NCBI RefSeq assembly: GCF_054482525.1
Contig: NZ_CM137006.1
Length of the DNA stretch: 64,000 nt
Strand: one strand, 5' to 3'
Within the stretch, counting starts at the first letter, position 1; each line of letters opens with the position of its first letter. The translations under genes and the position numbers were made by a program. Positions 49,979 to 58,235 of the stretch are shown here, one piece after another. Below the pieces are notes generated by a model. That model was given only the letters and a program-made list of their open reading frames with translations, was not told the DNA's origin and ran no database searches.

Positions 49979-50287
49979 TCACCCACGATTAACCAACAGC
50001 CAGACCAGCAGACACGCCACCACCGGCACAGCAAAATCCATCAGGCTTGCCACATCCCATGCACGTGTATCAAAACCGCCCCACCACGGCATATTCATTC
50101 GCTTGCCATGCCCGAACATTTCGATCCAGCGATATTCTGCCTGGGTGTGTTCACGCGCAATGAAGAACGTACAACCGGCTATCGCCCCGTAAGCCCAGTT
50201 CCCGGTAAAAAGACCAATCAGTAGCTGCGCAGCCACAGCACAAAGCGCATGAAGGAAAGGTGTTATATCCATTTTCATCCTACCCAA
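49979..50287 (-). CDS. Hypothetical small membrane protein (prophage)
   Basis: 102 aa ORF with two hydrophobic segments; family not recognised. Confidence 0.4.
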   Translation of the reverse strand: MGRMKMDITPFLHALCAVAAQLLIGLFTGNWAYGAIAGCTFFIAREHTQAEYRWIEMFGHGKRMNMPWWGGFDTRAWDVASLMDFAVPVVACLLVWLLVNRG

Positions 50288-50314
50288 TAAAACGGGGCGC
50301 TCGGCCCCTTAATA

Positions 50315-51355
50315 TTATTTAGACGCAAGCGCCGCATCAATTGCAGATAATCTTTGTCTTAATTCTGCGTTTTCTTCTTCCAGTGCTGTTATTCTGTCGT
50401 CTGACTCTCTGGCTACCTGAACAAGCAAGCCAGTAACACCAGAATAATCAACTGTGTAATAACGTTCACCTTCTTCACCTTCCGATCCGCTTGCACCGTC
50501 CTGATATTTCATTGCGGAACCTACAACTTCTGGGATTGCTTCCAGAGCTTCCTGTGCAATGACTCCAGCATAGGGCATACCGTTTTCTTTAAGCGTGTAT
50601 GTATAGCCGTTCATTTTACGGATGCGGTCGGTTGCATTATCGATCACCTGAATGTTGTCTTTCAGATCCCGGTCGGAATGCTGGTTAAATGCGGTGGCAT
50701 GACATGCACCATTAACGCTTAACATATAGGTGTTATCGGTATTTTTCTGCGCATAGAACATATAAGCGCCACCATCAGCACCAACTTCATATACAACCGG
50801 ACGGGTAGAGTTACCCCACAAACTAGTAGTAGCGCCAGAATGAGCGGTTCCCTGTGTGTTGATTGTCATGGTTGACCCATGATTGGCATATTTGATTTGT
50901 AATGTGTCTGTGCAGTCAAACTTAATAAGCGCGTTACTTCCCCGCACACCATACGACATGAGACAGTTCCCCATCTTAAGGTAACCATCACTGCCTGGAA
51001 AAATTAATGTTCCGCCGTAAAGATCGCTAAAATCCCAAAAGATACCTTTTGTTCCATTGTGTGTGACAATCCTTGTCATTGTATCTTTTGTACCGTCAAT
51101 ATTTTTTCTGGTGTACATCTCACTATAAGCGTTTTCGGTTTCTCCTGTCTTATTTGACAAGTGAATCTTACCGCTAAATATAGTTCCAGTGGTCGGCAAT
51201 GTCTTTTGATTATAGATTACATTGCAATAACTATTCCATGTTGTTTTATTGTCTACATATGATTTTGTTGCGTAGCTTCCTTGATCGTTTTTTAATTTGC
51301 TAACGTCGGATTTTAGCGTTTTGATATCATCAGGAATTACTGTCGATGTAGCCAT
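50315..51355 (-). CDS. Tail fiber-like protein with C-terminal peptidase S74 intramolecular chaperone domain
   Basis: 346 aa; C-terminal DLKDNIQ...GYTYTLKENG...ALEEENAELRQRLSAIDAAL typical of self-cleaving chaperone domains. Confidence 0.6.
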   Translation of the reverse strand: MATSTVIPDDIKTLKSDVSKLKNDQGSYATKSYVDNKTTWNSYCNVIYNQKTLPTTGTIFSGKIHLSNKTGETENAYSEMYTRKNIDGTKDTMTRIVTHNGTKGIFWDFSDLYGGTLIFPGSDGYLKMGNCLMSYGVRGSNALIKFDCTDTLQIKYANHGSTMTINTQGTAHSGATTSLWGNSTRPVVYEVGADGGAYMFYAQKNTDNTYMLSVNGACHATAFNQHSDRDLKDNIQVIDNATDRIRKMNGYTYTLKENGMPYAGVIAQEALEAIPEVVGSAMKYQDGASGSEGEEGERYYTVDYSGVTGLLVQVARESDDRITALEEENAELRQRLSAIDAALASK

Positions 51356-51364
51356 TTTTCTTCC

Positions 51365-51646
51365 TCACATCCAGCCACGAAGTTGATGCTCAACAGCAAC
51401 CGCGTATTCATCGAATAATGACGATATTTGCGAATCATTAATGATGCGCACGTTTACAAAATATCCGTCCTCCTTAACACATACCGGCTCGCCATCTTCA
51501 GTAAGTTCTCCGGTTTCTTTGTACACATTACCTATCACGTCAATAAGAATATCATCCTGCATCGACTCGTCATCATAATAGCCAATACTCTCCATAAAGG
51601 CCGAAAAGTCGGCCCTGTCGGCAAATTTGAGTGTTAAATCTTTCAT
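51365..51646 (-). CDS. Hypothetical acidic protein (prophage tail fiber region)
   Basis: 93 aa; start overlaps upstream stop (TAATG). Confidence 0.45.
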   Translation of the reverse strand: MKDLTLKFADRADFSAFMESIGYYDDESMQDDILIDVIGNVYKETGELTEDGEPVCVKEDGYFVNVRIINDSQISSLFDEYAVAVEHQLRGWM

Positions 51647-52263
51647 TAGATTGACTCCCCCATCTGAGCATCAGTCAATGCCTTGTGCCATATTCTGAAA
51701 TTCCTGACATGACCAAATAAATGACGCAACCCGGCTGTAGTCTGGCCTCCAATACGGATAATTGCGGTGTTCTGAATATAGGACCATGTGGCTTTCTTTT
51801 CGCTGGATATACGCCCGTTACTTACTGAGCACGTAGACTGATCTGACTTTACACGCATCCCCATAACCATTTTTTCAAGCGATGCGTTTTCGTTTACCCG
51901 TCTGTTAGCCAAACCTATATCGCAATAAGGAAATCCGTCGTAATCTGTTGAACGACCGAAGCCAAGAATAATAGCCGCTCCGGTTTGATGACCGCCGGTA
52001 TCAAAAACACGCGGTGCTGCATTTGGCGTTTTATACCAGTTCTTATGTACCTCACAAAGAACTGTAAAAGGAAGATTATAAAGGTTATTCTTGATTGAGA
52101 CTGTCACCATATCGCTTGCGCGAGTGCTTGCAATTATATCAGTTACAATAAATGACGAAGCACTTGATCCACCTTCCACTTGTGGAGTTGCGATATCCAG
52201 ATAGTCTCCAGATGCTGTGCCTGAACCTTTTACTGGAGCATATTGAACCATCGCACCAATCAT
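51646..52263 (-). CDS. Tail fiber distal segment, in frame with stf beyond an amber codon
   Basis: 205 aa ORF in same frame as stf, separated by TAG and 14 sense codons. Confidence 0.5.
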   Translation of the reverse strand: MIGAMVQYAPVKGSGTASGDYLDIATPQVEGGSSASSFIVTDIIASTRASDMVTVSIKNNLYNLPFTVLCEVHKNWYKTPNAAPRVFDTGGHQTGAAIILGFGRSTDYDGFPYCDIGLANRRVNENASLEKMVMGMRVKSDQSTCSVSNGRISSEKKATWSYIQNTAIIRIGGQTTAGLRHLFGHVRNFRIWHKALTDAQMGESI

Positions 52264-52305
52264 GCTCTCTGTATCTAGTGCATTAATTGTAGCCTGATAG
52301 AAAAT

Positions 52306-54030
52306 CTAACCAGTAGCCTCATCTTTTACAGCCTTTGCAATAATACGATTTGCTGCACCACCAGTCTTATCAATTACAAGTGTTGATAAATTGAGGTAAG
52401 CATCTCCCAAAAAAGTGTAAGTAGAACCATCATGATGTTCAAATCTTAAACGACACCTTATATTTTCAACATCACTTCTGACACGGCATGAAATGGTCAC
52501 ATATTTTTCATCACCTGTGACATCAAATCCTTTACTGCCAGAAACCGTTACGATATTAATCGCACTTGTCTGATCAATAAGAGTATCTTTTACAGTAAAT
52601 CTCCCATAAGTAAAATTAAAAGAATCCGTGGATATTTCTGTGAGTTCCAGATTGCCTGACTTATTCCATTTAGATGGATTTGTTGAATTAAGCAGAAGAT
52701 TAGTTCTTTGCCCCTCAATAAGCAGGCCATCACGTTCAAATCGCGGCTCGTCAATGGCAGCCTCTGTCAGTACACCAGATTTATTAATATAGGTTGCTTT
52801 CGATGCGCGTTTAAACTTAACAACCTTGTCACCAGGCATCGTTATTTCATCATCACCAATAACAATCTTTTTATATGATGGCGAAAAGCCCGTAATCATA
52901 TCCAGTGAATCGTTAAACGGTATCCACACATCGGGAAGCGGCTGCAAAACTTGTTTATACGGCTCCGCAGCCTGGCTTGCATACTCTCTGGCTGCGTCTT
53001 CACTTGCTTTTGCAGCCGTCTGGCTTGCAGCGGATGCTTTCGCCGAGTTAGCCGCCGCAGTCTCGCTCGCCTTTGCGTTGGTTTCACTGGTTTTTGCAGC
53101 TTTTTGACTGTTGGCTGATGCAGTGGCAGAAGAAGCCGCCGCACTTGCAGAACCAGCTGCGGCACTCTCGCTTTGGGCTGCAGCATCCTGACTGTTTTTC
53201 GCCGCAGTTTCACTGGCTTTGGCATTCGTTTCGCTGGTCTTCGCTGCCGTCTGGCTGGACTTTGCGTTAGTTTCACTCGTCTTCGCAGCTTTCTGGCTGT
53301 TAGCCGCAGCAGTTGCTGATCCAGCTGCTGAAGTCGCAGAACCGGCTGCCGCGCTCTCGTTTTGGGCTGCTGCAACCTGGCTGTTTTTTGCCGCAGTTTC
53401 ACTGGCTTTGGCATTCGTTTCGCTGGTCTTCGCTGCCGTCTGGCTGGACTTTGCGTTGGTTTCGCTCGTCTTTGCGGCTGTCTCGCTATTTTTCGCGTTG
53501 GTTTCTGATTTTTTGGCTGCTGCCGCGGAGTTTGCTGATGCAGTCTGTGAGGTCGCTGCCGCCTGTGCACTATTAGCTGCATTCGTTTCTGAGGTTTTCG
53601 CCGCGTTCTTCGATGATGCCGCTGCAGTTTCGGATTTCTTTGCCGCCGCTGCGCTCTGAGAGGCGGCTTCAGCGTTGCGTGCCGCTTCTTCCACCATTTC
53701 CTCAAAACGACGCAATGCCTCCGGCATGACATCATCTTCCGTCATGGCACCGAGAAAATCATTCAGCGTACCTGGTCTGGAACCTTCATAGACGGTAATG
53801 GTCCCGGCATGCGAAGGCGGAAAACCTTCAACCAGCAGGGTGACGCTGTACTGGCCATACTCAACATCCATGCTGTAACGCCCGGCTTCATCAGGATTTT
53901 CAGAGGCCACCGTGTTCACCAGTACCGTGGTGCTGTTACGCTTTGCCTTCAGTTGAATAGTGCAGTTCTGTATTGGTTTTCCCGCACCATCTTTCAGCAC
54001 ACCTGAGATTTTTACTGCTGCCATATCCAC
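52306..54030 (-). CDS. stf: Side tail fiber protein Stf (N-terminal and shaft portion)
   Basis: N-terminus MAAVKISGVLKDGAGKPIQNCTIQLKAKRNSTT matches lambda Stf; Ala/Ser/Thr-rich repeats; ends at TAG 52306-52308. Confidence 0.85.
   Translation of the reverse strand: MDMAAVKISGVLKDGAGKPIQNCTIQLKAKRNSTTVLVNTVASENPDEAGRYSMDVEYGQYSVTLLVEGFPPSHAGTITVYEGSRPGTLNDFLGAMTEDDVMPEALRRFEEMVEEAARNAEAASQSAAAAKKSETAAASSKNAAKTSETNAANSAQAAATSQTASANSAAAAKKSETNAKNSETAAKTSETNAKSSQTAAKTSETNAKASETAAKNSQVAAAQNESAAAGSATSAAGSATAAANSQKAAKTSETNAKSSQTAAKTSETNAKASETAAKNSQDAAAQSESAAAGSASAAASSATASANSQKAAKTSETNAKASETAAANSAKASAASQTAAKASEDAAREYASQAAEPYKQVLQPLPDVWIPFNDSLDMITGFSPSYKKIVIGDDEITMPGDKVVKFKRASKATYINKSGVLTEAAIDEPRFERDGLLIEGQRTNLLLNSTNPSKWNKSGNLELTEISTDSFNFTYGRFTVKDTLIDQTSAINIVTVSGSKGFDVTGDEKYVTISCRVRSDVENIRCRLRFEHHDGSTYTFLGDAYLNLSTLVIDKTGGAANRIIAKAVKDEATG
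53201..53578 (-). repeat. Tandem 189 bp duplication inside stf
   Basis: Near-identical 63-codon units starting at 53201 and 53390. Confidence 0.8.
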
Positions 54031-54088
54031 TCCACAAAAAAGCCCGCCTGAACCGGCGGGCTGTCATAACACTGTGTTACCTGGCTAA

Positions 54089-54688
54089 TCAGAATTTATA
54101 ACCGACACCCACGATGAAACCGTCAGTGCGCCAGTCACCACTGCCGGAACCTTCATAAGCAAGGTCAATGGCCACGGATTCGGTCGGGTTAAACTGCACG
54201 CCAGCCCCCCACGCCAGAGACGTGTTGCTGTGGCGACCGTCATCACTTCCGGTCAGCACATCGTGCGTTTTCCCCTTGTTGTCAGTTACGCGGAGATAAT
54301 CCCCGGAGAAGGTCGACACACGGCTGTAAGCCATACCCGCCATCGCATAAGCACTGAACCATTCATTCACGCGTACAGATGGCCCCGCCATCATGCTGAA
54401 CCAGCGGTTACACACTGAATCTTCATGCCAGCGGGTATCGCTGTAATGCGTTTTTTGCTCATCTTTGGCATTGGCATAACTGAATGACGTCACCAGCCCC
54501 AGCGTGTCCGTAAATTCATAACGGTATTTCACGTTAATGCCCTTCAGGTCATCACTGCCTGGCATATCAGTATGGGTCTGAAGATACCCGGCGCTTAGTG
54601 TGGACTGATGCTCTGCTGCGCTCGCTGGCGTACCAGCGGCAACCAGCCAGACTACTGCGGACAGAATAACAGCACATAATTTACGCAT
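54089..54688 (-). CDS. lom: Outer membrane protein Lom (Ail/Lom family)
   Basis: 199 aa, signal peptide, C-terminal GYKF; between J and stf as in lambda. Confidence 0.85.
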   Translation of the reverse strand: MRKLCAVILSAVVWLVAAGTPASAAEHQSTLSAGYLQTHTDMPGSDDLKGINVKYRYEFTDTLGLVTSFSYANAKDEQKTHYSDTRWHEDSVCNRWFSMMAGPSVRVNEWFSAYAMAGMAYSRVSTFSGDYLRVTDNKGKTHDVLTGSDDGRHSNTSLAWGAGVQFNPTESVAIDLAYEGSGSGDWRTDGFIVGVGYKF

Positions 54689-54755
54689 AATTACCTCTCG
54701 CTTTTCTGCAATAAAAAAGGCGTCATTTCTGACGCCCGTATTGAGGTTATAAAAT

Positions 54756-57700
54756 TCAGCTGATACTGATGCCTGCGGTGGCTTTCTTCATCACCACAAC
54801 CAGCAAATCGCTGATACTTGCTGTGGGATACCAGTCATTTACCAGCCATGCTGACACCGAAAACTCCAGCGTCATGTGACCGTGACCGGCAGGCATATCA
54901 ATAACGCCACTGTAAATCAGCGTATTATCCAGCGCGGTACGGTTATAAATTTCAGCACCGTTTTTCCGCACTATCAGACGGCATGAGGAGTAAATATCAG
55001 TATGCTCTCTCTCATGTTTAGCGCCGCTGAATGCCACCGCCGGAATAACAATCTGCCGGTCAAACGGCTGATCGTCATAAACCCTGACGGTAATGGTCCC
55101 TGATGGCCACCGTTCCGGTGCACGGGAGTCCCGGGGGAAAGCTTTGCCCACTGTTTTAACGAGATCGCCTTCAATCTGGTTCGCGGACAGTTTTCCCAGA
55201 ACCCGGCAGTTCTCGTTAATCGTGACGTTGTTGAGCGTCCCGGAGTTCGCATTCACGTTACCGCTGATATCGGCATTTTTCGCCGTCAGCCGCCCGTCCG
55301 GTGTCAGGGAAAATGCCGGAGGATTACCGCCGCTGGTAATGGTGGGAGCCGTCAGATATTTCAGGAACACTTCGTTCATGAATATCTGATCGCCCTGACC
55401 AACAAACATCGGCTTTGTGTTGCCATTCGCAGGATTAACCATCGCAATCCTGTCCGCCGCCAGCAGCACCTGACTCTGCATGCCGTCAGGGGTGTTCTCA
55501 ATACCGGCACCAATACCCGCGATATAAAGGCGTCCGTCCTGCATCTGCTGCAGCTTCACAGCCCACATGCTGTTCAGGTTATTATTTGTATCAACCTGAA
55601 CCTTCTGTATCTGCTGAATTGCCGCACTCTGGTCTTCCAGTTTCTTATTGACGGTCTGCGTGATTTCATTGCTGACATCCGTAATGGACGTCCTGATTTC
55701 AGCCAGGTCAGGCGCAAGCTGACCGTTATCAATCTGCGTCCACAGCTCCTGAGCCAGATGGCTTTTCCCTATCTCGCCTTTGAAAAAATCCAGATAGCCG
55801 GATGCATCATCACTCGGCTGGCCAACAGCCTCCACAAATGCCGATTTGCCAACGGTGTTCACACTGCGGATGTAAAAATAATAATCATGGCCCGGTTTGA
55901 TATTGATACTGGCGGCTATCCAGTACAGCGCCGTGCCAAGATAGCGGGCTGTGGTTTCAACCTGCCTGATATCGGTAATCCGCGTTTCCGAGAACCAGAA
56001 CTCAAACTGTACCGTCGGATCATAAACCGCAAGATGCGGCGTGGCAGTTATCTGAAAATAGCCCGGCGTCAGCTCAATCCGCGACGGCGCTGCCGGTGCG
56101 GCAATCCGGAACGATACCGATGCCGGATCGCCCTGCTGTCCCCACGCATTTACCGCCCGGACCGTCAGCGTGTAACGCCCCAGCGCCAGTTGCCTGAAGC
56201 GGTATGTGGTTTCCGTCGTCCTGGCCGTGCTGACCAGCCGCTCACTGCCGTCGTCCGCTGCCACGGTCAGGCGAAGCAGGAAGCTCACGCCCTTCACCAC
56301 CTTCGGCGTGTCCCAGCGGGCCAGTACCTGATACTCCCCGCTGTCTGCAGTGACTTCGGCAGTCAGGTGCTGCACCGCTGGCGGCGTGACACCATTCACC
56401 GTGCCGCTCTGGTCACCGTCAAAGTGCGCCCCGTTATCCACGATGGCTTCTTTCTCCGGTACATGCTGCACGGCAGTGATGGCATACGTGCCGTCGTCGT
56501 TCTCACGGATACTCACACAGCGGAACAGTCGCTGACGCAGCGTCGGCAGCTTCAGCCCCCATACGCTGTATTCAGCAACACCGTCAGGAACACGGCTCAC
56601 TTTTACCTTCACGCCGTCGGTGACGGACTGAACCTCCACGCTGACCGGATTGCCACTTCCGTCAACCAGGCTTATCAGCGTGGTACCGGAGGATGGCAGC
56701 GTGATTTCACGGTCGAGCGTCAGCGTCCGGGTCTGGCTGTTTACCGCCAGCACGCGCCCGCCGGTGCTGATACCGGCATAGTCATCATCGCAGATTTCAA
56801 TGACATCGCCCGGTACATGGCGAAGCCCTTCTGCACCCACGCTGAAGTCCACGGTCTGCGTTTCCAGCAGTTCCGTTTTAATCAGCCACAGCCCGGCGCG
56901 GTGCGCCTGCCCCCGGCTGGTACAGCCAAAGGCATCCATCTTCGTGACATTACGACCGTAACGGGCAATGGCCTGCGTATCTTCAACAAGCTCTGTCGCC
57001 GTCTCCCAGCCGTTGTTCGGGTCAATCCAGTTCACCTCAACGGCATTATGGCGGTCCTTCAGGGCGCTGAAGCTGTAGCGGAACGGCGCGCCATCATCCG
57101 GCATCACCACATTACTGCGGTTATAGGTCCACACCTTATCTGATGGTCGGTCCTGCACGAACGTCAGCGTCTGCCCGTTCCATACCGGCATACAGCGCAT
57201 CGCCGAGCAGAAATCACTGAGCACATCCCACGCCTTACGCTGCGTGGTCAGGTAGGCATTACAGGTGATGCGCGGCTCCGTGCCGCCAAAACCGTCCGGC
57301 ACTGACTGGTCGCAGTACTGGCCGATGACATACAGCGCCCATTTATCCACATCCGCCGCACAAAGACGTTTCCCCATGCCGTAGCGCGGGTGGGTCAGCA
57401 TATCCCACAGACACCAGGCCGGGTTGTTGCTGTATGCCGGCTTAAACGTTCCGTCCCAGATACCGCTGTATTGCCGCGTCTGCGGGTTATAGTTCGACGG
57501 CACCTGCAGAATGCGCCCGCGAAGATGATAATTACGGCTCACCTGCTGGCTGCCGAACTGCTCCGAGTCCACCTGCACGCCGACCAGTGCCGTGTTCGGG
57601 TAGCACTGTTTCACATCGATGATTTCGGTGTATGACGACCAGAGCGTTTTGTTCTGCAGCTGGTCTGTGGTGCTGTCCGGCGTCATCCTGCGCATCCGGA

Positions 57701-58235
57701 TATTAAACGGGCGCGGCGGCAGGCTACCCACCACCACCGAGGCCAGATACTGCGAGGTGGTTTTGCCCTTAATGGTGATGTCTTTTTCCGTCACCCAGCC
57801 ACCGTTACGTTGTATCTGAACCAGCAGACGGACTTCCGACGGATTCCTGTCCCCCTTTGAGGTGGTTTCCACCAGTGCCTGTACACCGAAGGTAAAGCGC
57901 AGACGGTCGATGTTTGCAGACGTAATGGTGCGGGTGATCGGCGTGTCATATTTCACTTCCGTACCCAGCACCGTCTCGGAGCCGGAGGATTCAAACCCCT
58001 CCGGCGGTGTCTGCTCCTGCTCACCGGCACGGAACACCACCGTGACACCGGAGATGTTGGTATTCCCCTCAGTGTCCAGCACCGGCGTACTGTTCAGCAG
58101 CACGCTTTTTAATCCATCCACCGGACCTTCAACCGGCCCTTCGCTGATGGCATCGATCACACTCAGCAACTGCGTGGACTTCAGGTTGTCCTTCGCTTCG
58201 CGCGGGGTATGCCCCTTACTGCTTCCTTTACCCAT
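54756..58235 (-). CDS. J: Tail tip host specificity protein J
   Basis: 1159 aa, lambda gpJ-like along its length. Confidence 0.9.

What the first reader, a model, noticed from the sequence alone, without database searches (positions are those of the whole stretch)
53201..53578. Tandem 189 bp duplication in the stf shaft region
Two near-identical 63-codon units (starting at 53201 and 53390) encode an Ala/Ser/Thr-rich repeat (KTSETNAKSSQTAAKTSETNAKASETAAKNSQ...). Repeat copy number could change fiber length, and the duplication makes this a likely site of slippage and assembly error. The antisense ORFs here are artefacts of the repeat.
Basis: seen in the sequence. Interest (0 to 1): 0.3.

Follow-up and report, generated by a model that had tools for sequence, protein, structure and literature searches.

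The report
Nine-heptad tandem duplication in Stf shaft
A real 189-bp (63-codon) tandem repeat lies in the coiled-coil shaft of a lambda-type prophage side tail fibre gene; related E. coli prophages carry one, two or three copies, but this is an ordinary case of a shaft already known to vary in length by whole heptads.

Summary
Tandem Repeats Finder gives period 189, 2.3 copies, 84% matches at 53053-53487.

The repeat lies on the minus strand in stf, downstream of J and lom. The protein has a PF08400 N-terminal domain matching the solved Ur-lambda Stf collar. The repeat sits inside 33 uninterrupted Ala/Ser-rich heptads, and each unit is exactly nine heptads. By homology this is the trimeric proximal coiled coil, called PCoil in the literature.

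Related prophages carry one unit (seven protein clusters and one complete genome), two (the large majority; the copy-1-type tail occurs in 1013 of 5426 complete E. coli genomes) or three (one draft contig). Hybrid alleles point to unequal recombination.

The two-copy allele is not an assembly artefact. The overlapping antisense ORFs have no family matches and are not conserved in extent.

Length differences in multiples of seven residues were already published for this domain, so the finding is ordinary.

Separately, stf in this window carries an amber codon (52306-52308) that cuts a 792-residue gene at codon 575.

The parts
53053..53487 (-). 189-bp tandem array, 2.3 copies. In gene order: copy 1 at 53293-53481 (aa 184-246), copy 2 at 53104-53292 (aa 247-309), partial copy 3 at 53053-53103 (aa 310-326).
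   Evidence: TRF. Offset scans. Block-shuffle control.
53201..53268 (-). Exact 68-bp core of copy 2. It is identical to 53390-53457 in copy 1 and is the likely crossover substrate.
   Evidence: exactly two matches in the window.
53390..53457 (-). Exact 68-bp core of copy 1.
52978..53670 (-). 33 uninterrupted in-phase heptads (aa 121-351). Position 3 is Ala in 30 of 33, position 6 is Ser in 31 of 33, and position 2 is Ala (25) or Asn (7). This is the PCoil / proximal coiled-coil shaft.
   Evidence: The AF2 monomer model is helical over aa 102-253 and 263-358. Homology to the lambda Stf proximal coiled coil (PMC12617516) and to PCoil (PMC3368898).
53629..54018 (-). Stf N-terminal domain (PF08400, aa 5-134). 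Residues 5-97 match the solved Ur-lambda Stf collar domain.
   Evidence: E = 4.3e-67. (PDB 9e7m/9mgh, E = 4.4e-49).
52306..54030 (-). stf reading frame as it stands in the window: 574 codons, ending at a premature amber codon.
52306..52308 (-). TAG amber codon where the homologues compared have TGG (Trp). It is a single G-to-A change at 52307 on the gene strand.
51646..52305 (-). The 3' remainder of stf, cut off by the amber codon. The ORF listing shows it as the 205-aa ORF 51646-52263. It is continuous with the upstream part in the intact 792-aa homologue.
   Evidence: The NF048003 spike-fibre domain lies at aa 435-636 of the intact homologue.
53219..53659 (+). Antisense 146-codon ORF encoding a hydrophobic low-complexity product. 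It is judged a by-product of the shaft's codon composition. Similar ORFs: 53313-53576 (+), 53073-53270 (+), 52826-53107 (+), and the alternative sense frame 52896-53735 (-).
54089..54688 (-). lom (Ail/Lom outer-membrane protein), immediately upstream of stf in the gene's direction.
   Evidence: PF06316, E = 1.7e-126.
54756..58235 (-). Tail tip protein J homologue. Together with lom and stf it gives the lambda order J-lom-stf.
   Evidence: Annotation of the homologous locus.

Best explanation
The 189-bp array is a higher-order duplication of nine heptads (63 residues). It lies inside the Ala/Ser-rich alpha-helical coiled-coil shaft of a lambda-type side tail fibre protein (Stf) encoded on the minus strand.

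The shaft links the N-terminal collar domain, which clamps the fibre to the tail, to the distal receptor-binding part. The unit is a whole number of heptads, so adding or removing one keeps the coiled-coil register and the reading frame. By inference from the usual rise per residue, each unit changes the rod length by about 9.4 nm (63 x 0.1485 nm).

The array arose, and still changes copy number, by unequal homologous recombination or slipped misalignment between the near-identical unit heads (68 bp exact). This produces alleles with one, two and three units in E. coli prophage populations.

Shown here: the repeat, its register, the domain identity, the helical prediction, the natural copy-number alleles and the hybrid units. 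Inferred: the trimeric coiled-coil state in this particular protein, the length per unit, and any effect on adsorption.
For: Repeat.

Gene identity and context.

Heptad register:
- 33 in-phase heptads with Ala at position 3 (30 of 33) and Ser at position 6 (31 of 33). Small residues show a strong 3.5-residue periodicity.
- Lambda Stf and K-12 StfR shafts are also in phase throughout.

Structure:
- The AF2 monomer model is all helix over aa 102-253 and 263-358, mean pLDDT 73.
- The Ur-lambda cryo-EM/ET study assigns Stf residues 102-393 to a trimeric proximal coiled coil (PMC12617516).
- The PfN-PCoil fragment of an O157 homologue was shown to be alpha-helical and trimeric by CD, SEC-MALLS and EM. 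That paper notes PCoil length differences in multiples of seven (PMC3368898).
- The same AKTSE-NAKSS-AAK motif lies in the sequence stretch (residues 1-190) that includes the unmodelled N-terminal triple-helical bundle and linker of depolymerase DpK2.

Copy number:
- Exact 63-residue in-register deletions in 7 of 120 protein clusters.
- One unit in the complete genome MSB1_4I.
- 3.3 copies in the IMG/VR locus L029.
- 74 of 81 loci have about two copies.
- Among 91 distinct shafts sharing the window's EPY-type (Glu/Asp-Pro-Tyr) shaft-end junction, 86 have lengths that differ by multiples of 7.

Recombination: P0104 is a hybrid unit, and the middle unit of L029 has a copy-1-type tail.
Against: - No trimer model or experiment for this protein. 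The AF2 run was a single chain with a low-confidence break at aa 254-262. That break falls on a sequence predicted helical in copy 1, so it is probably a fold-back artefact.
- The core is Ala/Ser rather than Leu/Ile, which is atypical for coiled coils.
- Five singleton shaft variants are out of heptad phase (-4, -12, -30, -41 and -68 residues), so phase is not absolutely preserved. Alternatively those sequences are defective or erroneous.
- The bias toward heptad multiples could come from the 21-bp DNA periodicity guiding recombination rather than from selection on structure.
- The three-copy allele rests on one draft contig. It was not found among the top hits in complete genomes.
- In this window the gene is truncated by an amber codon, so the repeat may have no current function here.
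Confidence: 0.85

Rival explanations
1. There is no discrete duplication. The similarity only reflects the low-complexity, 21-bp-periodic composition of the shaft.
For: Every offset that is a multiple of 21 gives 42-50% identity across 52900-53700. TRF also reports nested periods of 21 and 42.
Against: Offset 189 scores 129, against 22 or less for all other offsets. None of 500 heptad-block shuffles exceeded 54. There is a 68-bp exact run. Natural alleles differ by exactly one 63-residue unit.
Confidence: 0.01
2. The two-copy state in this window is an assembly artefact: a mis-expanded or mis-collapsed repeat.
For: Tandem repeats can be mis-assembled from short reads. The source and sequencing method of the window are unknown.
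Against: The copies are only 84% identical and the longest exact stretch is 68 bp, so ordinary reads can resolve them. The same 2.3-copy structure without indels is present in E. coli CH4811. It appears in all but two of the 130 complete-genome records listed (some records recur between the lists), in phage 2G7b and in 74 of 81 loci. The copy-1 tail occurs in 1013 of 5426 complete genomes.
Confidence: 0.02
3. The Ala/Ser/Thr-rich repeat is a flexible, intrinsically disordered spacer rather than a rigid coiled coil. Unit number would then tune tether length, not rod length.
For: The region is low-complexity and lacks large hydrophobic core residues. AF2 confidence is only moderate (mean pLDDT 73, pTM 0.28). 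phmmer even aligns it weakly to the RNA polymerase II CTD heptads.
Against: The heptad phase is strict over 33 repeats, with conserved positions 3 and 6. AF2 predicts helix throughout. CD, SEC-MALLS and EM show a trimeric helical rod for the homologous PCoil (PMC3368898). Cryo-ET of Ur-lambda shows a rod-like proximal domain that moves as a rigid body (PMC12617516).
Confidence: 0.07
4. One of the overlapping ORFs, for example the 146-codon ORF at 53219-53659 (+), is a real gene, and the repeat is maintained for it.
For: The ORF is long. In its frame 65% of codon differences among homologues are synonymous. PGAP annotates an equivalent antisense 'hypothetical protein' in strain EFF60.
Against: That frame shares wobble positions with stf, so the high synonymous fraction is expected. 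There is no Pfam match. The open stretch varies from 78 to 214 codons among 68 distinct homologues. The product is hydrophobic low-complexity sequence. PGAP calls the ORF only where stf itself is disrupted. The stf frame is continuous with two recognised domains.
Confidence: 0.02

Closest known systems
Bacteriophage lambda (Ur-lambda) side tail fibre protein Stf
   Same: The gene order J-lom-stf is the same. The N-terminal collar domain matches PDB 9e7m/9mgh over aa 5-97 (E = 4.4e-49). It is followed by a long Ala/Ser-rich region in an unbroken heptad phase. In Ur-lambda this region is the trimeric proximal coiled coil, residues 102-393 (PMC12617516).
   Different: The lambda shaft is about 38 heptads and TRF detects no higher-order repeat in it. 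The distal part differs: lambda has a gp37-like tip and Tfa, whereas here there is a spike-fibre-type domain (NF048003), a 93-aa ORF and a second fibre gene with an S74 chaperone domain. The copy in the window also carries an amber codon.
PCoil domain of E. coli prophage tail-fibre proteins (EPclA/EPclB; Ghosh et al. 2012, PMC3368898)
   Same: The position is the same, directly after the PfN/PF08400 domain. The Ala/Ser/Glu-rich composition and loose Ala-x-x-Ala/Ser-x-x-Ser heptad are the same. It was shown experimentally to be alpha-helical and trimeric. Its length varies between alleles in multiples of seven residues, which is the behaviour found here.
   Different: In EPcl proteins PCoil is shorter (about 16 nm) and is followed by collagen-like Gly-X-Y repeats. 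Here there is no collagen region, and the length change comes from a discrete nine-heptad unit present in one to three copies.
Escherichia phage 2G7b (Nesevirus) and E. coli CH4811 prophage stf
   Same: The N-terminal domain and shaft are 98% identical in protein to 2G7b. The first 1.7 kb of stf is 99.4% identical in DNA to CH4811. The 2.3-copy array and the downstream gene order are the same.
   Different: Those genes are intact (791-792 aa). The window has TAG at codon 575. CH4811 carries cdtABC downstream, where the window has appY and ompT.
N-terminal region of Klebsiella phage RAD2 depolymerase DpK2 (PDB 7LZJ), which includes a triple-helical bundle
   Same: It shares the heptad motif AKTSEDNAKSSENAAKNSE at residues 129-173. 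These residues lie in the unmodelled stretch 1-190, which includes an extended triple-helical bundle seen at low resolution (PMC8552709).
   Different: It is a short segment in a tailspike of a different architecture. The similarity is confined to the low-complexity motif (E about 3e-4), and that part of the structure was not modelled.

Membership tests
Lambda-type side tail fibre (Stf; PF08400-containing prophage tail fibre) | N-terminal PF08400 / StfN collar domain | tested here: met
   PF08400 at aa 5-134, E = 4.3e-67, 224.7 bits against a cut-off of 26.6. PDB 9e7m/9mgh Ur-lambda tail fibre chain, E = 4.4e-49.
Lambda-type side tail fibre (Stf; PF08400-containing prophage tail fibre) | Gene located downstream of the tail tip gene J and lom in a lambdoid tail module | tested here: met
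   J homologue at 54756-58235, lom at 54089-54688 (PF06316), then stf, all on the minus strand. The order is the same in annotated homologous loci.
Lambda-type side tail fibre (Stf; PF08400-containing prophage tail fibre) | Ala/Ser-rich heptad shaft (PCoil / proximal coiled coil) after the N-terminal domain | tested here: met
   33 in-phase heptads. AF2 predicts helix. The same phase is kept in lambda Stf and StfR.
Lambda-type side tail fibre (Stf; PF08400-containing prophage tail fibre) | Homotrimeric assembly of the shaft | not testable with these tools
   Only single-chain AF2 is available. The trimeric state is taken from PMC12617516 and PMC3368898 for homologues.
Lambda-type side tail fibre (Stf; PF08400-containing prophage tail fibre) | Intact reading frame through the distal receptor-binding part | tested here: not met
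   TAG at 52306-52308 replaces Trp at codon 575. Intact homologues are 791-792 aa. The window copy is best called a nonsense-mutated stf.
Lambda-type side tail fibre (Stf; PF08400-containing prophage tail fibre) | gp37-like distal tip with a downstream Tfa assembly chaperone, as in lambda itself | tested here: not met
   The distal part matches NF048003, the spike-fibre domain. The downstream genes are a 93-aa ORF and an S74-domain fibre, with no tfa. This is mosaic variation and does not affect the assignment of the shaft.
Polymorphic coding tandem repeat (minisatellite/VNTR type) | Head-to-tail copies of a discrete unit, above the low-complexity background | tested here: met
Polymorphic coding tandem repeat (minisatellite/VNTR type) | Unit length keeps the reading frame (and here the heptad phase) | tested here: met
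   189 = 63 x 3 = 9 x 21.
Polymorphic coding tandem repeat (minisatellite/VNTR type) | Copy number differs among otherwise near-identical alleles | tested here: met
   One unit: P0104, P0105, P0109, P0112-P0115 and L083. Two units: the majority. Three units: L029.
Polymorphic coding tandem repeat (minisatellite/VNTR type) | High mutation rate or within-strain instability | not testable with these tools
   This needs population sequencing or fluctuation assays. The two-copy allele dominates in every survey listed, which argues for rare events.

The most novel reading that the evidence does not exclude
The nine-heptad unit could act as a modular length 'ruler'. Phage lineages would gain or lose units to match the reach of the side fibre to the thickness of the host's O-antigen or capsule layer, so copy number would be an adaptive host-range or adsorption-rate determinant rather than neutral length variation.
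Probability: 0.1. Interest if true: 0.4.

Novelty: already known. Interest (0 to 1): 0.12.

Why it matters
- **Annotation:** the region belongs to a single minus-strand gene. The overlapping ORFs should not be called, and stf here should be flagged as nonsense-interrupted.
- **Biology:** this is a clean, well-sampled example of how a coiled-coil fibre shaft changes length in whole heptads through unequal recombination. The domain is already known to behave this way.
- **Engineering:** the unit boundaries are natural, register-preserving points for shortening or lengthening lambda-type side fibres.
- **Overall:** nothing here overturns or opens a question. The finding is ordinary.

Tried and rejected
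- **Synonymous versus non-synonymous counts to rule out the antisense ORFs.** The test is not discriminating for the 146-codon ORF. Its frame shares wobble positions with stf (72% against 65% synonymous). I relied instead on the lack of conservation of its extent and the lack of family matches.
- **Three-unit alleles in complete E. coli genomes.** I searched with a synthetic three-copy query and with the real L029 sequence. All listed hits were two-copy, so the three-unit state rests on one draft contig.
- **Estimating the one-unit fraction from tail-specific 84-nt probes**. The counts (1013 and 698 genomes) are not comparable, because a second shaft type has a shortened copy-2 tail. I used them only to show that the duplicated state is widespread.
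- **A simple shaft-end definition (first hydrophobic residue).** It gave spurious short shafts because of single substitutions. I replaced it with the distance from MVEE to the first Pro.
- **Sequence search of the PDB with the shaft alone.** It returned only low-complexity matches: the depolymerase motif and the RNA polymerase II CTD. No solved structure covers this region.
- **Rfam scan of 50000-56000.** No matches.
- **Fold search on the AF2 model.** Not run, because a single long helix is uninformative.

Full report
**1. Observation**

Tandem Repeats Finder reports one array of period 189 at 53053-53487: 2.3 copies, 84% matches, no indels, score 611. Nested arrays of period 21 and 42 lie inside it.

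Their first 68 nt are exact and identity then decays. The best ungapped register at offset 189 is 53053-53298 against 53242-53487, which is 246 bp at 84% identity.

It anchored the repeat on the exact 68-bp core (53201-53268 = 53390-53457), ran the second unit about 90 bp past the array's end, and missed 53053-53200.

The repeat is not just low complexity. With +1/-2 scoring, offset 189 scores 129 and every other offset from 6 to 519 scores 22 or less. In 500 shuffles of the 33 heptad-codon blocks the mean was 27.8, sd 4.7, maximum 54, and none reached 129.

Within a unit, the first five heptads are 17-21 of 21 nt identical between copies and are the same at the protein level apart from the first residue (Thr in copy 1, Lys in copy 2). 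The last four heptads are 12-18 of 21 nt identical.

**2. What the repeat lies in**

The array is on the minus strand, inside the ORF 54030-52306 (574 codons).

- Residues 5-134 match PF08400, 'Prophage tail fibre N-terminal' (E = 4.3e-67).
- Residues 5-97 match the solved Ur-lambda tail fibre chain, PDB 9e7m/9mgh (E = 4.4e-49).
- Upstream in the gene's direction are lom (54089-54688; PF06316, E = 1.7e-126) and a 1159-residue J homologue (54756-58235). This is the lambda order J-lom-stf.

The quoted peptide is encoded at residues 187-218 and 250-281.

Laid out in sevens, residues 121-351 form 33 uninterrupted heptads. Position 3 is Ala in 30 of 33, position 6 is Ser in 31 of 33, and position 2 is Ala (25) or Asn (7). 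Small residues show a strong 3.5-residue periodicity.

The 63-residue unit is exactly nine of these heptads. Copy 1 is aa 184-246, copy 2 is aa 247-309 and the partial copy 3 is aa 310-326.

**3. Structure and mechanism**

- A single-chain AlphaFold2 model of aa 100-368 is helical over aa 102-253 and 263-358, with mean pLDDT 73.
- The low-confidence break at aa 254-262 falls on a sequence predicted helical in copy 1. I read it as a monomer fold-back artefact. The Ur-lambda authors report that AF3 likewise predicted a folded full-length structure inconsistent with their cryo-ET.
- In Ur-lambda, cryo-EM/ET with AF3 assigns Stf residues 1-91 to a collar domain, 92-101 to a linker and 102-393 to a trimeric proximal coiled coil that moves as a rigid body (PMC12617516).
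- For an O157 prophage homologue, the PfN-PCoil fragment was shown by CD, SEC-MALLS and rotary-shadowing EM to be an alpha-helical trimeric rod. The authors noted that PCoil lengths differ by multiples of seven (PMC3368898).
- The same AKTSE-NAKSS-AAK motif occurs at residues 129-173 of depolymerase DpK2 (7LZJ). These lie in the unmodelled stretch 1-190, which includes an extended triple-helical bundle seen at low resolution.

I therefore read the array as a nine-heptad duplication within the proximal coiled-coil shaft. Each unit should add about 9.4 nm (63 x 0.1485 nm) without disturbing the register. The length figure and the trimeric state in this protein are inferences.

**4. Copy number among relatives**

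Protein database (360-residue query, best 120 clusters listed):
- 36 clusters have the same shaft length as the window.
- 7 clusters (P0104, P0105, P0109, P0112-P0115) have an exact in-register 63-residue deletion.
- By my hand count of the table, the two-copy clusters hold about 500 member sequences and the one-copy clusters hold 8.

Complete E. coli genomes:
- The top 40, 60 and 30 hits to synthetic three-copy, synthetic one-copy and real three-copy queries were all two-copy, judged by record span. Some records recur between the lists. There were two exceptions.
- Strain MSB1_4I has a single unit.
- Strain EFF60 has a 105-bp period, that is a five-heptad copy followed by a nine-heptad copy.

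Other sources:
- Among 81 loci, mostly from IMG/VR, 74 have about two copies and one (L029) has 3.3 copies at 88% matches.
- Phage 2G7b has the 2.3-copy array in an intact 791-residue gene.
- The copy-1-type tail occurs in 1013 of 5426 complete genomes. In my sample this tail is seen only in alleles with two or more units.

Shaft length: among 91 distinct shafts that share the window's EPY-type (Glu/Asp-Pro-Tyr) shaft-end junction, 86 have lengths that differ by multiples of seven (182, 217, 231, 245, 308). Five singletons are off phase.

Evidence for unequal crossover:
- All one-unit alleles have a copy-2-type tail.
- P0104 is a hybrid: it has the copy-1 junction residue followed by a copy-2 tail.
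- The middle unit of L029 has a copy-1-type tail.

These patterns fit unequal crossover within the near-identical unit heads.

One caveat applies to the heptad-multiple pattern. The 21-bp DNA periodicity alone would bias indels toward heptad multiples, so it does not by itself prove selection.

**5.

- *Assembly error:* not supported, for the reasons in sections 1 and 4. Many draft-assembly proteins in the hit list are partial, but they end at residues 475-630, downstream of the repeat.
- *Antisense ORFs:* the ORFs at 53219-53659 (+), 53313-53576 (+), 53073-53270 (+), 52826-53107 (+) and the alternative sense frame 52896-53735 (-) have no Pfam matches. Their stop-free extents vary widely among 68 distinct homologues, for example 78-214 codons.
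- The synonymous-fraction test does not discriminate for the 146-codon ORF, because its wobble positions coincide with those of stf (0.72 against 0.65).
- These ORFs follow from the restricted codon repertoire of the whole heptad region rather than from the duplication. PGAP has annotated one such antisense ORF in EFF60, where stf is disrupted.

**6. Comparison with known systems, and novelty**

This is a member of the lambda-type Stf / PF08400 prophage tail-fibre family, with the PCoil shaft described in 2012 and visualised in 2025. The first 1.7 kb of stf, which includes the whole repeat, is 99.4% identical to an annotated RefSeq gene.

That the shaft varies by whole heptads is published. 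I did not find the specific nine-heptad unit with one to three copies described in the papers I read, but it is an unsurprising instance of the same behaviour. I therefore rate it already known and of low interest.

**7. Other points**

- stf in this window is interrupted by TAG at 52306-52308, where the homologues compared have Trp. The 205-codon ORF 51646-52263 is the cut-off distal part.
- The closest relative, CH4811, carries cdtABC downstream. The window has appY and ompT there instead.

Noticed in passing
window 52306-52308 (minus strand); ORFs 52306-54030 and 51646-52263: stf is split by an in-frame amber codon (TAG) where the homologues compared have TGG (Trp). Read-through gives a single gene matching the intact 792-aa protein of E. 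coli CH4811 and the 791-aa protein of phage 2G7b. The side fibre of this prophage is therefore probably truncated before or within its distal domain.
   Followed up: yes
window 47351-49303; L001 10562-12662: The closest relative found for the stf region (E. coli CH4811; first 1.7 kb of stf 99.4% identical) carries cdtABC, the type IV cytolethal distending toxin genes, just downstream of the tail-fibre genes. Homology to the window stops at 49986, and the window has appY (48554-49303) and ompT (47351-48304) there, as at the DLP12 prophage site of K-12.
   Followed up: partly
window 50315-51646 (minus strand): Downstream of stf lie a 93-aa ORF with no family match and a 346-aa second tail-fibre protein with a Peptidase_S74 intramolecular chaperone domain (aa 227-278). 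No tfa-type assembly gene is present. Phage 2G7b has the same arrangement.
   Followed up: partly
L084 3195-3551 (E. coli EFF60, NZ_CP086678.1): RefSeq/PGAP annotates an antisense 'hypothetical protein' (WP_416373223.1) inside the stf shaft where stf is called as fragments. This is the same kind of composition-driven ORF as window 53219-53659 (+).
   Followed up: partly
L084 (EFF60), L002 (AREA_504), L028-type IMG/VR loci: Other shaft length alleles exist on the same N-terminal domain. EFF60 has a 105-bp period (a five-heptad copy plus a nine-heptad copy). AREA_504 has an 18-heptad shaft with no 63-residue unit. A third allele has a second unit of eight heptads joined to a different distal module (the DPASVPPLP junction). 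The shaft is shared across different receptor-binding ends.
   Followed up: partly
Proteins P0043, P0044, P0115, P0118, P0120: Five singleton shaft variants differ from the common form by -4, -12, -68, -30 and -41 residues, which breaks the heptad phase. They could be coiled-coil stammers or stutters, defective prophages or sequencing errors.
   Followed up: no
Protein hits P0001-P0120: Most database homologues are 'partial' proteins of 475-630 residues from short contigs. Draft assemblies therefore tend to break in the distal half of stf, not in the 189-bp repeat. The likely reason is that distal modules are shared among several prophages in one genome.
   Followed up: no
PDB 7LZJ residues 129-173; phage hits H163-H173: The heptad motif AKTSE(T/D)NAKSSxxAAK recurs in the Klebsiella phage depolymerase DpK2 and in tail fibres of Klebsiella siphophages and T5-like phages. 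This suggests a widely exchanged coiled-coil module.
   Followed up: partly
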